Assembly: GCF_009914755.1 (NCBI RefSeq)
Contig: NC_060927.1
Reading direction: 5' to 3' (one strand)
Source: the human T2T-CHM13v2.0 reference genome, Homo sapiens
DNA length: 64,000 nucleotides
Shown here: piece by piece, positions 13,325-57,850 of the stretch
Layout of the letters: each line of letters starts with the position of its first letter
Numbering within the stretch: position 1 is the first letter of the stretch
Program-made: the position numbers and the translations under genes
The notes under the pieces: model-generated
What the model was told of the DNA's origin: nothing
The model's database searches: none
Seen by the model: the letters and a program-made list of their open reading frames with translations, nothing else

Positions 13325-13660
13325 ACAACTCTGTTGGTTGCCAACAACAGAACCCAGCTGCCACTACTATTTAATGTTGTCACAATGGAGAATCCAAGGC
13401 AGAGTGGAACTTCCCAGCCTCAGAAAGGCAGAAACCAGGAAAGCTAAGGTTGTTCAACTTCAGTGATGTTTCTTTGTCATGGGTTCAGTGAAGTTTCTCA
13501 TCATGGGTTCATTTACTTAGGAAAAGAATTATATAGTTATTCTAGCTTGCTCTTGTTTCTGGGACAGTTGGCCAGCCCCATCTTACATTACTGGTAGATT
13601 ATAGTTAGATCTGGTTATAGGAGAATCAGTGTGAGCTGAAAGGTATCCTAATGTGTGTCG
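13325..13660 (-). mobile_element. Old MLT1-like LTR remnant
   Basis: 'actctgttggttgccaacaacagaacccag' resembles the terminus of old MLT1 elements; highly diverged. Confidence 0.4.
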
Positions 13661-20900: not shown

Positions 20901-21915
20901 AAATAGCATATAAAGTTCTGACAAGGAAGGTCATAAAGTTTAAAAATGATCCTTAAGATAAGACTTTTTTCTGAAAAGTAGCTTAAGAGAAATGATTTTC
21001 ATAGTTCTAAATCTTAAAGCATCACCAGCAAATACATGAAGTTTGACCTATTCTCCATATGTGTACATTTTCATAACTTGTCTTGCTAGTTGGGAAGGTC
21101 TCCTAAATAACAGTGGTTTTCAGGCAAACACTAAATGAAATTTTGATGGGAATATTATAGACAGAATTTAAGCATCAAATGAATGATTCAACTAGTGACC
21201 TTGAAAGTCATTTTGCATCTCTGAAAATCTCTAGGGTTTTTATGAGGATGGTGGAAATTAACTTGAGGGCCTGTTGACCTAGCTTGACCTATGACTTTTG
21301 TTTACACAAATGCATTTTTTTCCAGATACCCTATTAAAATATCATTGTAAAGTTATTGAATAATAACACCATACAAAAACAGTGTAGGTTTAATTTGTCC
21401 CCACCACCAGCATATTGTGGACAATCTCTTACATGGACAGGTAAAATGAACTGTCCTGTTCTGAGATAGTGGGCAAGAGAGACCATGTAACAAACCCTGA
21501 CTGTCTAGATCATCCAGAATGCCCTGGCAAGTTCACTTCCATTTAGTGAAGTGAGATAATTTGGCAATTCACGCAAGAGACTGAGAACCAAGCCTCAAGC
21601 CCTGCCTCTGATTCTGCAGGTATGGTAAGTCTTTCATGCCTTTCTGTGTTTCCAGTGCTTCTTCATGGGCAGATTATTTTTAAATCTACTTCACAGTCAC
21701 TATGTAACTAGTATATGTTTAAAAATAAGCTATATTTAGGGGAGGAGTCAATTCTCCCTTACAGGAAAAAATTCATTATTTTATTTCCTAAATTTTATTC
21801 AACTTCAGGTTTTACTACTGGGGAAACACTGAATTACAGCACAAAGTGAATGACTTCAGGATAAAAGATTTCAAACTTTAAAAAGCAATTAATTTATTTC
21901 TCCTTTCACCCACAG

Positions 21916-21963
21916 GTCTACCCACGGATAGCGCCGGCATTTTGGCACTACCTGCGGGTAGAA
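21916..21963 (+). CDS. EPHA6: Candidate EPHA6 48-nt in-frame cassette microexon (VYPRIAPAFWHYLRVE)
   Basis: Strong acceptor tttatttctcctttcacccacAG and donor GAA|GTGAGT; 16 stop-free codons, phase 0/0 matching the phase-0 start of exon 22359; 4 CpGs in 48 nt within CpG-poor DNA. Confidence 0.75.
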
Positions 21964-22358: not shown

Positions 22359-22521
22359 GAACATGAGCAGCTGACCTACTCTTCCACAAGGTCCAAAGCC
22401 CCCAGTGTCATCATCACAGGTCTTAAGCCAGCCACCAAATATGTATTTCACATCCGAGTGAGAACTGCGACAGGATACAGTGGCTACAGTCAGAAATTTG
22501 AATTTGAAACAGGAGATGAAA
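22359..22521 (+). CDS. EPHA6: EPHA6 coding exon, C-terminal half of second fibronectin type III domain (EHEQLTYSSTRSKAPSVIITGLKPATKYVFHIRVRTATGYSGYSQKFEFETGDE-)
   Basis: Long polypyrimidine tract + cccccAG acceptor at 22357-22358; donor A|GTAAGT at 22522; 163 nt (phase 0 to 1); Eph FN3 motif GLKPxTxYVFxxRxRTxxGY. Confidence 0.96.
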
Positions 22522-38130: not shown

Positions 38131-40204
38131 GGATGTTTACTAAGAATTTTGAGGTTGGTCTTTAATGAGTGCTTAGAATGTAAATTTTCTACTTTCATAT
38201 CAATAGATGATATAAATGGTACAAAAATATGGTGAAGCAATAGAGAAATCCTTCCACTATAAATGTTGAGAAGCCCAACCAGTATTTTTGCAAAAGTAAA
38301 AATAAAACCTCTCCATGTTTATGCTAAAATGGGCTGCAGGCAAAGCAAAGATTGTCCTTAGGAAGCAGATTTGAATCTGCCCCCACCGTTAGATACACTC
38401 TAGATTGAGAGTTCAGAGTCCCCCACCACAGGATACTGGGAAAAAAGATGATTCTGGCCTGGAAATTTTTCAAAGCAGGTGTTGTTGCAAGTCATCAAAA
38501 AGAAACCCGAGGAGTAATGCTCCCATGGAAAAAGTTATATTGAACTGCGTAGCTCTGCACTGTGCTTTCCTGGATAAGCTATAGAAAAAATATGCATGTA
38601 CAAAATGGAAATATCTTGTCTCATTGTGTGAAGTTTTGATCAATTGCCTTTTGTCTGCCAAAGAAAATGATTTTCAATTTGATAAAGTTGGTGATGCTCA
38701 ATTCTTTCTGGCAGCAGTAGGATAGCAGAATTATTTGTATCCTGAAGTTAATTCTAGTTGTTGAAAATTACACCCATATCATCAGCATGTAGGAAGATGC
38801 TTATCTTTCTACCTGCCATGATGGCAAATACCCAGTTTGTCTAAAATCAGTGCCATATTGTGAAGATACTAGTTAAAAATTAATAAATAAAACACAATAC
38901 TGGTTTTTATATTACATGACAAGGTGAATGGGTATGTCAGGAAATGTTCCCTTTCATTTCAGTTTTAGAAAGATATTTACTCCCACATTTGTAGATCCTA
39001 ATATTAAGCTTCATTTTTTACTTAACTCAATTCCCTAGGCAATGAAGTCAAAATTTTGTGAAAAAATCAATATGCATAAGTAAACAATCTTATTTTCTTC
39101 AAAATAATAGTAGTAAATAGTAGGGCAATACTGTGCCAAAAACCTTCTTGCTGCTAATACGAATTATTTAACTTGGAGACCTCACACACATGGCTTAAGG
39201 AGAAGCAGGGTGTAAATAATTGAAGAGATGCTGAAAAAATTGATGGAGCCATAGTTTTGTGCTACCATGGGGTTGGCCTTTTTAAAATAGAATAGTCTCC
39301 CATTGAATCTCTCCAGAATTAATCCTGATGATTGATTAGAGGTAGTTTGAGGTAAATAGTTTGGTGTTCTTCAGAACAGGCTTCAAACAATGATCCAAAA
39401 GCTTCCCTTAGAACTTACTCACTTTCAGGAGATGGTTAAATGAGTTTTGGCATAAAGCAATAGCAGGTCCTAAAAGAAATATACTTGGGTCCATAACGCT
39501 AAGAAAAATTGGCACCTGGCATTGTGGTTAGCCGTGCTTCCATAAATAGTTCTACTGATGCCAAATAAAGGACAACTGTAGCCTCAAATTCATGTTACCA
39601 TAAACTGTGAAAATTCACTAAAAGCCTTCCACAGGAATTTAGCTCCAGTATTTTGGTGATAATTAGTTTATAATTAGATAGGTTTCAATTAAGCAAAATA
39701 TTTCACATTCTAACATGCTGTCTTGCTAAACTTGCCAGAAATGTTGTCTGCCCATTTGTTTTTTTTTCTTTTTTTGTTTTTGCATCTATGCAATTTTTAT
39801 TAAATTGATACATGAGACCCATTAGATATAGGACAGACAGGACTGATTTCCCCCCAAAACTATCCATCTATTAAAGAAAAATAAATTGGAATATCTCCTG
39901 GCACATGTGTTAGTCTTTCTGTAGAAAAAGGTTGTTTTAGAAAGGTAAGCACATTTCCACTCCATTTCACCCTACACTTCCAATCCTATCCATCCAGTTA
40001 CCGGGCAAACAGACTTGGGAGGCTGTGTTTATCATCAAAATCAAAAGATGACAGTAAGGTTAGATAGAAAACATTCCCCTCAAGCAACATAATAAACAAT
40101 GAGAAGTAACTATACCTAGTTTGGATATATAAAGTCCTGCATCGCCCTGCCCCATATCAGCATTTACATCCAGTCTAATTATTTTCTCTTGGTTCATTAT
40201 ATTC

Positions 40205-40420
40205 CATAGGACTCTCCATTTCAAGTGACAAAACTGTACTGGCTTAATGAAAAGTGGGACTTTATTGCCTCAGGTAACTGAAAAGTCAAAGGGGTAGTGT
40301 GAGGGTCGGGCCAAATCCAGGCTCTCCAATGATGTCTTCAGTGATGTCTCAGTCTCAGTTCTGTTTTCTTCTCTGATGGGTTTGTCTTCAGTATTCTCAT
40401 GTATTTGCAAGAGTTTATGT
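40205..40420 (-). mobile_element. Old MLT1 (J/K/L-like) LTR remnant hosting the 64-nt exon
   Basis: 'aggactct...caagtgaca...actggcttaa...tttattgcctcaggtaactgaaaagtc...ggggtag...atccaggctc...atgatgtc' follows the antisense MLT1J/K pattern as I recall it. Confidence 0.65.
40210..40273 (+). CDS. EPHA6: Candidate EPHA6 64-nt alternative exon (DSPFQVTKLYWLNEKWDFIAS in the short-isoform frame; stop TAA at 40245 in the full-length frame)
   Basis: ttattttctcttggttcattatattccatAG acceptor, CAG|GTAACT donor. ATG AAA at 22516-22521 + this exon + exon 49143 gives the open frame MKDSPFQVTKLYWLNEKWDFIASASDMAAEQ..., which matches my (unverified) recollection of a short EPHA6 isoform N-terminus. Confidence 0.75.
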
Positions 40421-42068
40421 CTCTGGTAAAAATGGCAATTTTCATTAAACTAACATCTACATATACCCTATTCTAGAATCTGAATATTAATAGTAACTTG
40501 AGAAAAACTCAAGCATGCTGACTGGAGTCAGTTTCAGTTTAAATTATTATGACCTCTTCCTTGCCTATCTCTCCAACTTCCTCTTGTGCATATTGGTATG
40601 TGTCCCAGGCATCTCAAAGTACATATAAACTCCTGAAGATGTTGTGCTATTTATACCTTCGTAGTATTTGTGATGTTTCCTCAAGCCACAGTGTCCAATA
40701 TCTACTTACCATGTTGGTGACTTGCAGATTTCTTCGAATCATTCCAGATTTAGTTTAAGAATTACCTTCTTTATAATCTTCCTACGATTTTTTCGGTGGA
40801 GAATACCACCCTCCCCCTCTTGTCCTGTGACCTTCACACATACCTCCATTCTAGCACCAATGTTTCTGTATTACAACTATGATCTGCATCTCTATCTCTC
40901 TCACTAAAGAGAAACGCTATGAGGAAATCACACTTCAGTTTTCTTCATCTCCCCAAGCTCTATATCACAGTGCTTAGCAAATGGTATTTTTGTTGTTATT
41001 GAGTGAATAATGAGTTGGTGAATGAGAATTTCCTCAAGAAATTATTTAGATTTTTTTTCTAAATAATTCTGTTTTTAAAATCATTTTCTTTAAATATTTT
41101 TTCTATGAAAAATAGACTCCAAATAAATCTAAGTTTATACAGTTCATACAACTTATGAAATTTGTGATCCCTAATGATTATCCATTTCATTACAAAGCTC
41201 TTTATCTCAAACCACAGTAACTTATATTAAGAAGCTATAACCCCAAGTGCATAGATATGCTCACCAATGTGCAAATATCTACTATTAATATTATGGCACA
41301 TGGTGAATAGTATTTAAAATTGAACATCATTGGTTCCAGGTCAGTGATCCAGGGATGTTGTGAAATTTGTATGGAAATCCTATTTTACACTGGATCTTAA
41401 AAGACTTTTTAAAGGATGAAAGATATATGCATGAAGATGTAAATATTCTTTGAGAAAAATGTTCTCAAGACCTATCTCAACTGCCAGTAACAATATGAAA
41501 TACAGACAATTACAAATTACATCTTTGACATTTAGGATGTTGACCGTAGTTTCAGGTGTTTAAATGTCTCAATCATTTTCTTTGTTCTTTGAAATTTGTT
41601 ATATGAAGGCTACCTATGGTAAGGCATCTTGACCATTCATTAATGAACACAAGAATCTCTTAAAATAAAAAAAAGTCAGAAAATACTTCATTATGCTGCG
41701 CTATTTGCCTCTGCTTCTGCTTCTCCATTAAATTGTACCAAAATCACATTTTCCAATTATTCCTGTGTCATTTGGCATTTTTACCTGACAAGTAAATTGA
41801 GGTCATCAGGAAGAGTGAATCTCAAAATCTCTGTTGTTTCAGTGTAGCCACAGTTTGATATACTGAATTGTATTGTTTCTGGAGAAGTGGCAGAGGAGTA
41901 GAAGAAGGCACAGCTATGAAATCACTTTCTGAAAAAAAAAAAAAAAGTATGATCCCTGCTAAGGGTCTCTGCTTCAACAGAAATGATCCATGAGGTTTGT
42001 TTCCATTCAGCTGAGAAATCAGTAATCAGCTTACTTGAATGGAAAAAAGAAACTCTTGCTATTCTCTT

Positions 42069-49142: not shown

Positions 49143-49251
49143 CTTCTGACATGGCAGCAGAACAAGGACAGATTCTCGTGATAGCCACCGCCGCTGTTGG
49201 CGGATTCACTCTCCTCGTCATCCTCACTTTATTCTTCTTGATCACTGGGAG
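49143..49251 (+). CDS. EPHA6: EPHA6 transmembrane exon ((T)SDMAAEQGQILVIATAAVGGFTLLVILTLFFLITG(R))
   Basis: tctctgtttcAG acceptor, AG|GTAACT donor; 109 nt (phase 1 to 2), in phase with the previous exon; about 24-residue hydrophobic helix. Confidence 0.96.
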
Positions 49252-51201
49252 GTAACTGAAACATACCATACTATTTCCGAGATTTATGAATAACCACTCT
49301 TTTTATACATTGTGTATTCAAATGCTTTTAGATATAACAAAGCACACCTGAGGTCGAGAGGGATCCCAGAAGAATCCACTCTGACAGTGAACCATCATTA
49401 GTTCTCTGTTTCAACAGGTCCCTGAATATGGAAAGATCCGAAGATGACTAAAGCTGTTTGAAAGCTATGAATGATGAATTTATAGTCAATAAGTTACTCC
49501 ATATTTTTCCTTTACTATAATCAAATTACATCATAAAAAATAATTTTCTTAAAAAATATTTTAATGGAAAGTCAGAACAATTTATAGAAAAACTCTTTAT
49601 AAACCTAGTGTTATAGAAATATAATATTTTGTCAATTAAATATTGAAACTGTCTATGTTAGAATTATATTAATTGGTTTTATAAATCCAATATTTCTATA
49701 CTTCAAAGTAATTTGAATAAAATATAAACTAACAGTAAATTTAACATAGCAAAAGACCTAAATTTGAATCCTGACTAACTGGTCCAAGTGCTTCACCCAT
49801 CAGAACCTTAGCTTTCTATTTTTATACAGGTTTGATACAAAAGTATATTAAAACCATTTAATGACTTTTAAATAAATAGTATGAATACCATAATCCAGGT
49901 GCTGATAATACAGACGTGAATGAAGATAATATGTATAAAATTATATCAAAGAATAAATGTTATTTCTTATTTAATCCATGGTATTTGGCCAGGACTTTTT
50001 CCAGAAATCACAATATTTTATTCTCAGATCATTCTAACAAGAAGATAAAATAGTCTATCTAGATATCAAAAGAGGCACAAAAGAATACCTCAACAGATTT
50101 TTTATAATCAGAAACACACATCTACTGCAATATTTCACTATCATGATTTAAAACTGCAAAAAGAATGTCAGCCAAACAGTACACACCAATGTTGACTCCA
50201 GCTAAAGTACACCAACCCTGCCAGAAAACATTGGTACGTCAGAAAGAGCAGAAATAATAAACAGCACCTTCAGTGAACCGAAAACACTATTTGTTTTTAA
50301 AACTCTGCTTAGGGACCAACATTTTATTAAAATTTAATCTACTTAAAATTACAGAGGTAATTTTAATACACATATGAAAAATTGTCTACAATTTTGACAG
50401 CACACCAAAAAGTATAGAACTTGACAAGTACTTTGCATGTATCAAATGTGGGTCCCTGACAAATATACAACTGCTATTCAGTAACAGTGTATTAGATATA
50501 GTTGTAACAAACCTCCTTTTATAGAATTTACCGAGGAAAAAAGCAGCATGAATATTCTAATGTGGTTGAGTTAAAAATGATGACTTATTTGTGAAATTAA
50601 GTGGAAAGAAGGCACTTTACAACTATGTTTACTTAAGTTTTTCATGTATATAAACAGATATAGTAATGGTCTTAGAATTAAGAGGGAGTATTTGGGGGTC
50701 TCTAGTTTTGGGGGGTGATTAGCTGATAGAATAATGCCAGCTACAGTAACAAGGAAAAAAACAGACATGAAAGAATGCAGGAAATAATGATAAATTCATC
50801 TTAATACAAGTACTAATTTGGGCACAACATGTTGCCACCATCAGGCACTGTTGTCCAGCATCCTCTTAGGACCCTTTTCCTTTATTTTTAGGGCAAACCT
50901 CTGACAGCTAACTGCCATCATCAGAGCTTTGATATAGCTCATCTTTTATAGAGGACAGAAAGCAAATTTTGGAATCTCTAAACCAATTAACCATTAGGTT
51001 GTAGATTAAATGTTCAACACTGCAGCTTATCAAACATGGCCTACAAAAACTTGAATCACTAGCCAGAATAAAGTGATTATAAAAAATAAACAAAACCCCT
51101 AAACATCCTGGTGGAGGTCTAAGTTTTCTGAGAAAGATTAAAATTATTCCCATACTATTTTGGACTCTGGCAAAGAGAGGGATTACAAGACAGTTATGGT
51201 T

Positions 51202-57724: not shown

Positions 57725-57850
57725 TGCGCTTCCCGGGAATTAAAACTTACATTGATCCAGATACATATGAAGACCCATCCCTAGCAGTCCATGAATTTGC
57801 AAAGGAGATTGATCCCTCAAGAATTCGTATTGAGAGAGTCATTGGGGCAG
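57725..57850 (+). CDS. EPHA6: EPHA6 juxtamembrane tyrosines and kinase domain start ((L)[41 protein letters not shown](G))
   Basis: gttgcAG acceptor, CAG|GTAAAT donor; 126 nt (phase 1 to 1); hallmark Eph motifs YIDPxTYEDP, EFAKEID and the start of the Gly-rich loop VIGAG. Confidence 0.98.

What the first reader, a model, noticed from the sequence alone, without database searches (positions are those of the whole stretch)
40210..40273. LTR-derived dual-frame exon: poison/truncating for full-length EphA6 but frame-opening for an ectodomain-less TM+kinase isoform
Seen: spliced after 22521 in the normal frame it reads ...GDE-RLSISSDKTVLA* (TAA TGA at 40245-40250), before the TM exon, giving an NMD target or a soluble ectodomain. 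In the shifted frame, the last 6 nt of the FN3 exon (gagATGAAA, 22516-22521, purine at -3) plus this exon read MKDSPFQVTKLYWLNEKWDFIAS and rejoin the canonical frame at the TM exon. Two short same-frame uORFs (ATG 22363 and 22441) precede it. The exon lies in what looks like an antisense MLT1 LTR. Inference: one exonised transposon fragment could split the receptor into ectodomain-only and ligand-independent, signal-peptide-less kinase products.
Basis: partly seen in the sequence, partly recalled or inferred. Interest (0 to 1): 0.75.

Follow-up and report, generated by a model that had tools for sequence, protein, structure and literature searches.

The report
Known LTR-derived alternative exon of EPHA6
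A 64-base alternative exon of the human EPHA6 receptor gene, recruited from the end of an ancient retrotransposon repeat, shifts the reading frame exactly as described, but the exon and its short protein isoform are already catalogued and look like an unselected by-product.

Summary
Exon 40210-40273 is 64 nt with an AG acceptor and a CAG|gtaact donor. After 22521 the normal frame reads RLSISSDKTVLA then TAA TGA. The frame of ATG 22516 reads MKDSPFQVTKLYWLNEKWDFIAS and rejoins the receptor frame in the TM exon.

It is not new. RefSeq already lists the exon. The predicted N-terminus is identical to a catalogued 398-aa human protein, UniRef "Isoform 3 of Ephrin type-A receptor 6". Five other catarrhine entries carry it too.

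All six stop inside the kinase activation loop, so none is a TM plus intact-kinase protein. The exon-coded residues vary in 4 of 21 columns, against 1 of 296 canonical columns.

Frame-opening is not needed: ATG 49151, ATG 21622 and an a1-exon start reach the same frame without this exon.

The repeat origin holds. Both splice sites lie in an old dispersed repeat (45 genomic pattern hits against 0 control). The name MLT1 and the antisense orientation rest on recall.

About 23% of random 64-mers from this intron are open in that frame. Most likely this is an ordinary, mostly unproductive exonisation.

The parts
40210..40273 (+). 64-nt alternative cassette exon of EPHA6 ('X64'). It shifts the frame by +1.
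   Evidence: Listed among 'exons of other transcripts' in the RefSeq table given with the finding. tblastn of P0024/P0016 maps their residues 3-25 here.
40198..40622 (-). Copy of an old dispersed LTR-type repeat that contains the whole exon. The left end at about 40198 is well defined; the right end is approximate. The minus orientation and the name MaLR/MLT1 are inferred, not tested.
   Evidence: Window against 20 genomic copies: 14 of 20 align at E<0.001, the best being L040 over 40198-40622 at E 8.6e-14. Genome-wide pattern counts are 14 vs 1 and 45 vs 0 control.
40198..40209 (+). First 12 nt of the repeat copy (tatattccatAG), supplying the acceptor AG at 40208-40209. The pyrimidine tract upstream (about 40180-40197) is flanking non-repeat DNA.
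   Evidence: One search aligns this stretch with the terminus TGTATTAGTCAG|GACTCT of L040. Ten of 20 copies show the same ..AG|GA[CT]T motif 59-87 nt left of the pattern.
40274..40285 (+). Donor site gtaactgaaaag, inherited from the repeat.
   Evidence: 43 further genomic matches to the 25-nt pattern spanning the donor, against 0 in the backward control. 24 of the 43 have a pyrimidine where the window has the exon's last G, although the pattern asked for G (my count from the listing).
40245..40250 (+). TAA TGA: tandem stops in the canonical EPHA6 frame.
   Evidence: The stop ends 26 nt before the exon end and 135 nt before the TM/next-exon junction.
22516..22521 (+). ATG AAA: start codon of the catalogued MKDSPF... 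isoforms. It is out of frame with the receptor in the FN3 exon.
   Evidence: P0024 begins MKDSPFQVTKLYWLNEKWDFIASASDMAAEQ.
22433..22521 (+). Shortened form of the FN3 exon in RefSeq with no AG upstream. It is probably the first exon (or a 5'-truncated cDNA end) of the X64-containing transcripts. This link is inferred.
   Evidence: upstream ...taagccagc|CACC. In the chain 22433-22521 + X64 + TM, the first long ORF starts at 22516.
22441..22461 (+). uORF MYFTSE*, in the same frame as ATG 22516. uORF MSS* at 22363-22374 lies only in longer 5' ends.
49143..49251 (+). Transmembrane exon. Its in-frame ATG 49151 (tctgacATGg) can open TM+kinase without X64.
   Evidence: The dog protein P0030 (427 aa) starts MAAEQGQ.

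Best explanation
40210-40273 is a real, already annotated alternative cassette exon of EPHA6. It was recruited from the terminal ~75 nt of an ancient dispersed LTR-type repeat, most likely an antisense MaLR/MLT1 solo LTR lying at about 40198-40620.

The repeat supplies the acceptor AG (its bases 11-12), the exon body including the TAA stop, and the donor GTAACT. Host flanking DNA supplies most of the pyrimidine tract. A G at the last exon base, where most copies have a pyrimidine, improves the donor (inferred).

Because the exon is 64 nt long, its inclusion has two outcomes. In mRNAs translated from the normal start it puts a stop 135 nt upstream of the next junction, so such mRNAs are predicted NMD substrates (inferred). 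In 5'-short transcripts whose first exon is 22433-22521, the first long ORF starts at ATG 22516. That ORF gives the catalogued 334/398-aa proteins: a 26-residue novel N-terminus, then TM, juxtamembrane region, N-lobe and part of the C-lobe, ending in an alternative tail inside the activation loop. These proteins cannot be complete kinases.

The isoform-specific residues change about as fast as unconstrained sequence. The most likely reading is therefore a low-level, largely unproductive exonisation whose ORF was catalogued from cDNA clones, not a selected switch.
For: - Anatomy and frames.
- Already catalogued: P0024 'EPH receptor A6 [Homo sapiens]' / 'Isoform 3 of Ephrin type-A receptor 6' starts with exactly the predicted peptide. 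Six clusters among 37 candidates of 218-697 aa carry it, all catarrhine and all 334-398 aa.
- Truncated kinase: P0024 matches a full-length EphA6 only over residues 15-320. Its last exons map to alternative exons about 8-10 kb past the activation-loop exon.
- Lack of constraint across 5 species: 4 of 21 X64-coded columns and 18 of 78 alternative C-terminal columns vary, against 1 of 296 canonical columns.
- Repeat origin:
  - Pattern from 40360-83: 14 hits vs 1 control.
  - Pattern across the donor: 45 hits vs 0 control.
  - L032 aligns to 40205-40342 at 22 bits with the selecting pattern removed, against a maximum of 4.4 bits in 30 shuffles.
  - 14 of 20 copies align at E<0.001, the best reaching 40198-40622.
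  - 230 ordered copy-copy alignments at E<=1e-5.
  - The terminus and the AG are shared by 10 of 20 copies.
- Chance level of the dual-frame property: 23%.
- LTR exonisation enriched among NMD-regulated transcripts: abstract of bioRxiv 10.64898/2026.10.22.760879.
Against: - I had no expression, junction-read, CAGE, Ribo-seq or proteomic data. 'Low-level' and 'unproductive' are inferences.
- The shifted-frame ORF is open in all five catarrhine species seen, and curated databases treat it as coding.
- The non-human entries may be projections of the human model, so they are not independent evidence of expression.
- The substitution comparison rests on 21 codons.
- With the 25-nt selecting pattern cut out and the query halved, only L040 (E 0.0024) and L053 (E 0.022) still align on the right, and none of the 20 copies aligns on the left.
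- Pairwise searches of 264 kb of genome gave only one marginal match (E 0.04-0.26).
- The family name and the orientation rest on my recall of MaLR LTR ends and on a conserved AATAAA on the minus strand. They do not rest on a library match.
- The database is clustered at 90% identity and one search covered 218-697 aa only. A full-kinase form with this N-terminus could be hidden.
Confidence: 0.68

Rival explanations
1. One exonised fragment is a functional switch that splits EphA6 into a secreted ectodomain (normal frame) and a ligand-independent, signal-peptide-less TM+active-kinase protein (shifted frame).
For: - Frame arithmetic is confirmed.
- The flanks around the TM helix favour the native N-out/C-in orientation without a signal peptide. 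The 33-residue N-flank has 3 K/R and 5 D/E; the first 15 residues after the helix have 4 K/R and 1 D/E. This applies the positive-inside rule, which is established knowledge.
- Mouse Epha6 is listed among 'TMcatalytic' variants made from alternative starts (PMC1431701, Table 8 and passages).
Against: - All 6 catalogued proteins with this N-terminus end in the activation loop.
- None of the 177 fetched proteins has the ectodomain tail (only 120 of 183 hits were listed).
- From a full-length mRNA the ribosome would have to reinitiate after about 640 codons to use the shifted frame.
- In a3-containing 5' ends the strong ATG 21622 opens the canonical frame first.
- The exon-coded peptide is unconstrained.
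- TM+kinase can be made without the exon.
Confidence: 0.06
2. The catalogued 334/398-aa proteins are real products of an internal promoter. They act as membrane-anchored, kinase-dead modulators (dominant negative or scaffold) of Eph signalling in catarrhines.
For: - The RefSeq exon 22433-22521 has no acceptor upstream, as a transcript start would.
- The ORF is open in 5 species.
- The short uORF stop at 22459-61 lies 54 nt before ATG 22516, a spacing that permits reinitiation.
- Truncated Eph isoforms with modulatory roles are known: EphA7 and others are mentioned in PMC1431701 passages, and EPHA6-001 in PMC5828187 passages.
Against: - Isoform-specific segments evolve about 60 times faster per column than the shared part.
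- A start inside a coding exon is also what a 5'-truncated cDNA gives.
- A kinase domain cut in the activation loop is likely to misfold (inference).
- No paper in the searched library mentions the peptide (0 papers) or NM_173655 together with EPHA6 (0 papers).
Confidence: 0.15
3. A regulated poison exon. Inclusion is controlled by splicing factors to tune EPHA6 dosage through NMD.
For: - The stop position meets the 50-55 nt rule.
- Splice signals are good: donor CAG|gtaact, a 36-nt AG-free zone, 73% pyrimidines at -25..-4, and a CTAAT branch-like site 31 nt upstream.
- EPHA6 splicing is known to respond to NONO at another site (PMC5828187).
Against: - Regulated poison exons are typically deeply conserved (established knowledge). 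This exon sits in a decayed repeat and was seen in catarrhine entries only.
- No data on regulation were available.
- Searches for 'EPHA6' with 'cryptic exon' gave 2 papers. I read the EPHA6 passage of one, which was irrelevant, and saw the other only as a listing.
Confidence: 0.11

Closest known systems
Human EPHA6 'isoform 3' (398 aa; UniRef name 'Isoform 3 of Ephrin type-A receptor 6') and the 334-aa form
   Same: Identical N-terminus MKDSPFQVTKLYWLNEKWDFIASASD, followed by the TM exon. Residues 3-25 map to 40210-40278.
   Different: Nothing differs at the exon.
'TMcatalytic' receptor variants of Forrest et al. 2006 (PMC1431701), which list mouse Epha6
   Same: Products that lack the signal peptide and ectodomain but keep the TM segment, and arise from alternative starts (Table 8 and passages).
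   Different: The mouse transcript structure was not available: the 3 supplementary files held had no Epha6 entry. Nothing shows that it uses an LTR exon. The human catalogued forms lack an intact catalytic domain.
EPHA6-001, the NONO-dependent C-terminally truncated EPHA6 variant (PMC5828187)
   Same: An alternative EPHA6 transcript that gives a truncated receptor (passages).
   Different: EPHA6-001 is made by extension after exon 5. It encodes 547 aa of ectodomain and does not involve this exon.
Exonised transposon fragments, especially LTR/ERVL-MaLR, many of them NMD targets
   Same: Splice sites lie inside an intronic repeat, the exon shifts the frame, and the distribution is lineage-restricted (abstract of bioRxiv 10.64898/2026.10.22.760879; passages of PMC12999487).
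   Different: Those papers do not mention EPHA6 (0 occurrences in PMC12999487). Family assignment here is by recall.
LTR-driven truncated receptor kinases (ERBB4 in lymphoma; ALK-ATI recalled from memory)
   Same: A retroelement gives rise to an N-terminally truncated receptor tyrosine kinase. ERBB4 is listed as 'LTR, alternative promoter' in the table of PMC5454887.
   Different: There the LTR acts as a promoter and the kinase is intact and active. Here the LTR is an internal cassette exon and the known products lack a complete kinase.

Membership tests
Catalogued EPHA6 short isoform (UniRef 'Isoform 3') | N-terminal peptide identical to the translation of ATG 22516 + 40210-40273 + TM exon | tested here: met
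   P0024 residues 1-33 equal the spliced translation. tblastn maps it to the exon.
Catalogued EPHA6 short isoform (UniRef 'Isoform 3') | Exon present in the reference annotation | tested here: met
   The RefSeq table supplied with the finding lists 40210-40273. Splice sites were verified.
Transposon-derived (exonised) cassette exon | Exon sequence belongs to a dispersed repeat family | tested here: met
   14 vs 1 and 45 vs 0 genome-wide pattern hits. 14 of 20 copies align at E<0.001. Masked-pattern control gave 22 bits against at most 4.4 bits in shuffles.
Transposon-derived (exonised) cassette exon | Both splice sites lie inside the repeat | tested here: met
   The acceptor AG aligns with bases 11-12 of the copy terminus, shared by 10 of 20 copies. 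The donor GTAACT lies within the 25-nt pattern shared by 43 other loci.
ERVL-MaLR / MLT1 LTR, antisense | Significant match to a curated MLT1 consensus or profile (Dfam/Repbase), with orientation | not testable with these tools
   No repeat library is on hand. The name rests on my recall that MaLR LTRs end ...ACTAATACA, the reverse complement of the terminus seen in copies.
ERVL-MaLR / MLT1 LTR, antisense | LTR hallmarks: TG...CA ends, a polyadenylation signal near the 3' end, target-site duplication | tested here: inconclusive
   Copies start TGTATTAG... at the left end. TTTATT (AATAAA on the minus strand) lies about 55-90 nt from that end and is kept in most of the 45 hits. The right end and the target-site duplication were not resolved.
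NMD-coupled poison exon | Premature stop more than 50-55 nt upstream of a downstream exon junction | tested here: met
   The stop ends 135 nt before the TM/next-exon junction.
NMD-coupled poison exon | Exon-containing RNA rises when NMD is blocked; inclusion is regulated | not testable with these tools
   No RNA data were available.
N-terminally truncated active receptor kinase (TM+kinase) | Retains TM segment, lacks signal peptide and ectodomain | tested here: met
N-terminally truncated active receptor kinase (TM+kinase) | Intact kinase domain | tested here: not met
   All 6 catalogued clusters with this N-terminus diverge after ...EAAYTTT in the activation loop. No form with the full kinase was found among proteins of 218-697 aa.

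The most novel reading that the evidence does not exclude
In catarrhine primates the LTR exon is a genuine two-way switch. From full-length pre-mRNA it lowers receptor output, or yields a soluble ectodomain. From an internal start near 22433, or from the a1 promoter, it gives a membrane-anchored, ectodomain-less EphA6 fragment with a lineage-specific N-terminus that modulates Eph signalling in brain or testis. Some long-read molecules would then join the exon to the complete kinase.
Probability: 0.06. Interest if true: 0.5.

Novelty: already known. Interest (0 to 1): 0.15.

Why it matters
If the short proteins were made and active, a primate-specific retroelement would have rewired an axon-guidance receptor, which would be of interest for brain evolution and for EPHA6-linked cancers. 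As the evidence stands, the exon is a textbook LTR exonisation that reference databases already hold. Its main practical value is as a caution. The 'isoform 3' coding sequence is probably an ORF call on a short cDNA. It lacks a full kinase, so it should not be treated as an active receptor kinase in variant interpretation or isoform-level expression work.

Tried and rejected
1. Whole-genome DNA searches with 361, 801 and 501 nt queries found only the query itself. The first look is too coarse for old repeats.
2. nhmmer searches gave little.
   - The exon region against the rest of the window found nothing.
   - Against 264 kb (window plus 200 kb downstream) it found nothing at default filters.
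   - With filters off it found one marginal hit, L009:6406-6557. This scored E 0.26 and 7.4 bits, against a best of 6.6 bits in 10 shuffles. The reciprocal search gave E 0.044.
   - Iterating found no new members.
   - This route alone could not show a repeat. The pattern route did.
I reached the isoforms through neighbouring exons instead.
6. Literature searches:
   - 'EPHA6' + 'NM_173655': 0 papers.
   - 'EPHA6' + 'cryptic exon': 2 papers. I read the EPHA6 passage of one, which was irrelevant, and saw the other only as a listing.
   - 'EPHA6' + 'exonization': 1 paper, which lists a LINE1 transcript and not this exon.
   - Repeat motifs: 2 unrelated shRNA papers.
   - Peptide fragments: 0 papers.
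   - Supplements of PMC1431701: no Epha6 entry in the 3 files held.
8. I briefly considered a MIR origin from a recalled resemblance. I dropped it once the copies showed an LTR-like terminus.

Full report
OBSERVATION

- Exon 40210-40273 is 64 nt. It is preceded by ...ttattttctcttggttcattatattccatAG and followed by gtaactga.
- Spliced after 22521, the receptor frame reads ...FETGDE-RLSISSDKTVLA and meets TAA TGA at 40245-40250.
- The frame that starts at ATG 22516 (caggagATGa) reads MKDSPFQVTKLYWLNEKWDFIAS. The exon's last base then completes a GCT codon with the TM exon, and the reading continues SDMAAEQGQILVIATAAV... in the canonical frame.
- The two short uORFs (ATG 22363 MSS*, ATG 22441 MYFTSE*) are in that same frame.

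The splice signals are good.
- The donor is CAG|gtaact.
- The 36 nt before the acceptor hold no AG.
- Positions -25..-4 are 73% pyrimidine.
- A CTAAT branch-like site lies 31 nt upstream.

HOW SPECIAL IS THE 'DUAL FRAME'?

It is not special. Any exon of length 3n+1 placed here brings the frame of ATG 22516 back into the receptor frame.
- Of all 26557 64-nt segments of this 26.6-kb, 34% G+C intron, 23% are open in that frame.
- 75% carry a stop in the canonical phase.
- 17 of 85 AG..GT-bounded 64-mers are open.

WHAT IS ALREADY KNOWN

The RefSeq table supplied with the finding lists 40210-40273 as an exon of other EPHA6 transcripts.

I searched the protein database with the 41-aa juxtamembrane exon (window 57727-57849). 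This gave 604 hits among 609 candidates, of which 120 were listed. I then scanned the 120 for the exon peptide.
- Six entries share 6-mers of the exon peptide, and a seventh (gibbon P0020) starts inside it.
- P0024 is 398 aa, named 'EPH receptor A6 [Homo sapiens]' and 'Isoform 3 of Ephrin type-A receptor 6'.
- The others are from chimpanzee (P0023, P0012), orangutan (P0016, 334 aa, a cluster of 22 members), gibbons (P0021, P0020) and red colobus (P0022).

A second search used residues 1-45 of P0024 among proteins of 218-697 aa. It found 6 clusters among 37 candidates, all catarrhine and all 334-398 aa. So the 'inferred' product is a catalogued isoform.

WHAT THE CATALOGUED PROTEINS ARE

P0024 follows the canonical sequence through the TM segment, the juxtamembrane region and the kinase N-lobe, up to ...DFGLSRVLEDDPEAAYTTT in the activation loop. 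It then switches to 78 unrelated residues. The 334-aa form switches to 14 unrelated residues.

tblastn places these tails in alternative exons about 8-10 kb beyond the activation-loop exon, at window-scale coordinates of about 219.9 and 222.1 kb in locus L017. The proteins therefore lack the rest of the C-lobe and the SAM domain. They are not TM plus active kinase.

No protein of 218-697 aa combines this N-terminus with a full kinase. Two caveats apply: the database is clustered at 90% identity, and only that length range was searched.

This includes a search with the FN3 exon that gave 183 hits, of which 120 were listed.

IS THE EXON NEEDED TO 'OPEN' A TM+KINASE FRAME?

No. I enumerated ORFs in 12 plausible exon chains. 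The results were:
- ATG 49151 in the TM exon (tctgacATGg) is in the canonical frame. A dog entry starts there (P0030, MAAEQGQ...).
- Exon 21509-21624 ends in ATG 21622 (gcaggtATGg). This is in frame with the FN3 exon both directly and through exon 21916-21963.
- Upstream of exon 13398-13448, an ATG at 13374 reads MLSQWRIQGRVELPSLRKAETRKAK in frame with the FN3 exon. This matches the start of orangutan isoform X13 (P0031, 631 aa), which runs from half an FN3 domain through TM into the kinase (Pfam kinase and SAM hits; its tail departs from the other entries).
- When X64 is skipped, ATG 22516 opens a 14-codon uORF that overlaps ATG 49151.
- When X64 is included in a3-containing transcripts, the strong ATG 21622 opens a frame that ends at the X64 stop.

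Mouse Epha6 was listed as early as 2006 among 'TMcatalytic' variants made from alternative transcription starts (PMC1431701, Table 8 and passages).

SELECTION

Five species were aligned: human, chimpanzee, orangutan, gibbon and colobus.
- 4 of the 21 exon-coded columns vary, and so does the junction codon.
- 18 of 78 columns of the alternative C-terminus vary.
- 1 of 296 canonical columns varies.

The isoform-specific parts therefore behave like unconstrained sequence. The numbers are small, and I had no DNA from the other species to count silent changes.

TRANSPOSON ORIGIN

Direct similarity searches failed or were marginal. One marginal paralogue, L009, gave a 24-nt degenerate pattern. That pattern hit the genome 14 times, against 1 for the backward control.

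I fetched the 12 new loci.
- Three of them align with the window over 170-250 nt: L032 at E 3.7e-8, L033 at E 6.4e-7 and L024 at E 7.8e-4.
- With the selecting pattern removed from the query, L032 still scores 22 bits over 40205-40342. The best of 30 shuffled queries scored 4.4 bits.

A second pattern across the donor (40261-40285) hit 45 places, against 0 for the control. I fetched 20 of these.
- 14 align with the window at E<0.001 and 19 at E<0.05.
- The alignments span from 40161-40260 on the left to 40284-40622 on the right. The best is L040, covering 40198-40622 at E 8.6e-14.
- With the pattern cut out and the query halved, only L040 (E 0.0024) and L053 (E 0.022) remain on the right, and none of the 20 copies aligns on the left.
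- The copies form a family among themselves, with 230 ordered pairs at E<=1e-5.

Several copies share a sharp left terminus, TGTATTAGTCAG|GACTCT... The window aligns to it as tatattccatAG|GACTCT. Ten of 20 copies show the same AG|GA[CT]T.

So the parts of the exon have these sources:
- Acceptor AG: bases 11-12 of the repeat.
- Exon body: the next ~64 nt, including the TAA, since copies read CTTAA there.
- Donor GTAACT: also from the repeat.
- Pyrimidine tract: mostly host flank.

By my count from the listing, 24 of the 43 other loci have a pyrimidine at the exon's last base, where the window has G, even though the pattern favoured G. A change to G that strengthened the donor is therefore plausible. 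This is an inference.

They rest on my recall that MaLR LTRs end ...ACTAATACA, and on the conserved AATAAA on the minus strand 55-90 nt from that end. No repeat library was available to test either point.

MECHANISM AND VERDICT

Shown:
- the exon, its frames and its stop;
- its identity with a catalogued isoform;
- the truncated kinase of that isoform;
- the repeat origin of both splice sites;
- the fast change of the isoform-specific residues.

Inferred:
- NMD of full-length mRNAs that include the exon;
- that the 22433 start is either a real internal start or a truncated cDNA end;
- low inclusion;
- lack of function.

The general class is well described: LTR exonisations, many of them silenced by NMD (abstract of bioRxiv 10.64898/2026.10.22.760879; passages of PMC12999487).

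I rate the finding as correct in its observation and already known in substance. It is overstated in its functional reading.

Noticed in passing
window 21916-21963: This 48-nt alternative exon encodes VYPRIAPAFWHYLRVE in frame inside the second FN3 domain. The peptide is present in 40 of the 120 EphA6 proteins listed, from frogs, turtles, birds and mammals. It is therefore an ancient conserved cassette exon that the selected human transcript skips.
   Followed up: partly
window 21509-21624 (ATG 21622-21624): This alternative exon ends exactly in an ATG with a strong context (gcaggtATGg). It is in frame with the FN3 exon, both directly and through 21916-21963. That gives an N-terminally truncated receptor (half FN3 + TM + kinase) without the 64-nt exon.
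   Followed up: partly
window 13374-13448: An ATG 24 nt upstream of the annotated start of exon 13398-13448 reads MLSQWRIQGRVELPSLRKAETRKAK in frame with the FN3 exon. This matches the N-terminus of orangutan isoform X13 (P0031, 631 aa). It points to an intronic promoter for an ectodomain-less EphA6.
   Followed up: partly
window 22516-22521 with 49143-49181: When the 64-nt exon is skipped in 5'-short transcripts, ATG 22516 opens a 14-codon uORF (MKLLTWQQNKDRFS*). It overlaps the in-frame ATG 49151 and would be expected to dampen initiation there.
   Followed up: no
window 22359-22381 and 22433-22521: RefSeq lists these two pieces of the FN3 exon. The 51-nt gap between them (22382-22432) has no GT..AG ends. 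It looks like a cDNA deletion, an alignment artefact or a transcript start rather than an intron.
   Followed up: no
window 40274-40281 and 49252-49259: The 64-nt exon and the TM exon have the same eight intronic bases after the donor (gtaactga). This is probably coincidence.
   Followed up: no
L012:2363-2524 (about 166.4 kb on the window scale): The primate short isoforms carry a roughly 42-residue stretch (RSFPAIGVEAFCPSF...PAGRP) inside the kinase N-lobe/hinge region. The squirrel-monkey full-length comparator did not align cleanly there (82.8% identity over 308 columns). It may be a primate-specific alternative exon within the kinase domain.
   Followed up: no
L017:5895-6122 and L017:8062-8103 (about 219.9 and 222.1 kb on the window scale): These alternative terminal exons give the 398-aa and 334-aa isoforms their non-kinase tails. 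Their residues vary in 18 of 78 columns among five primates.
   Followed up: partly
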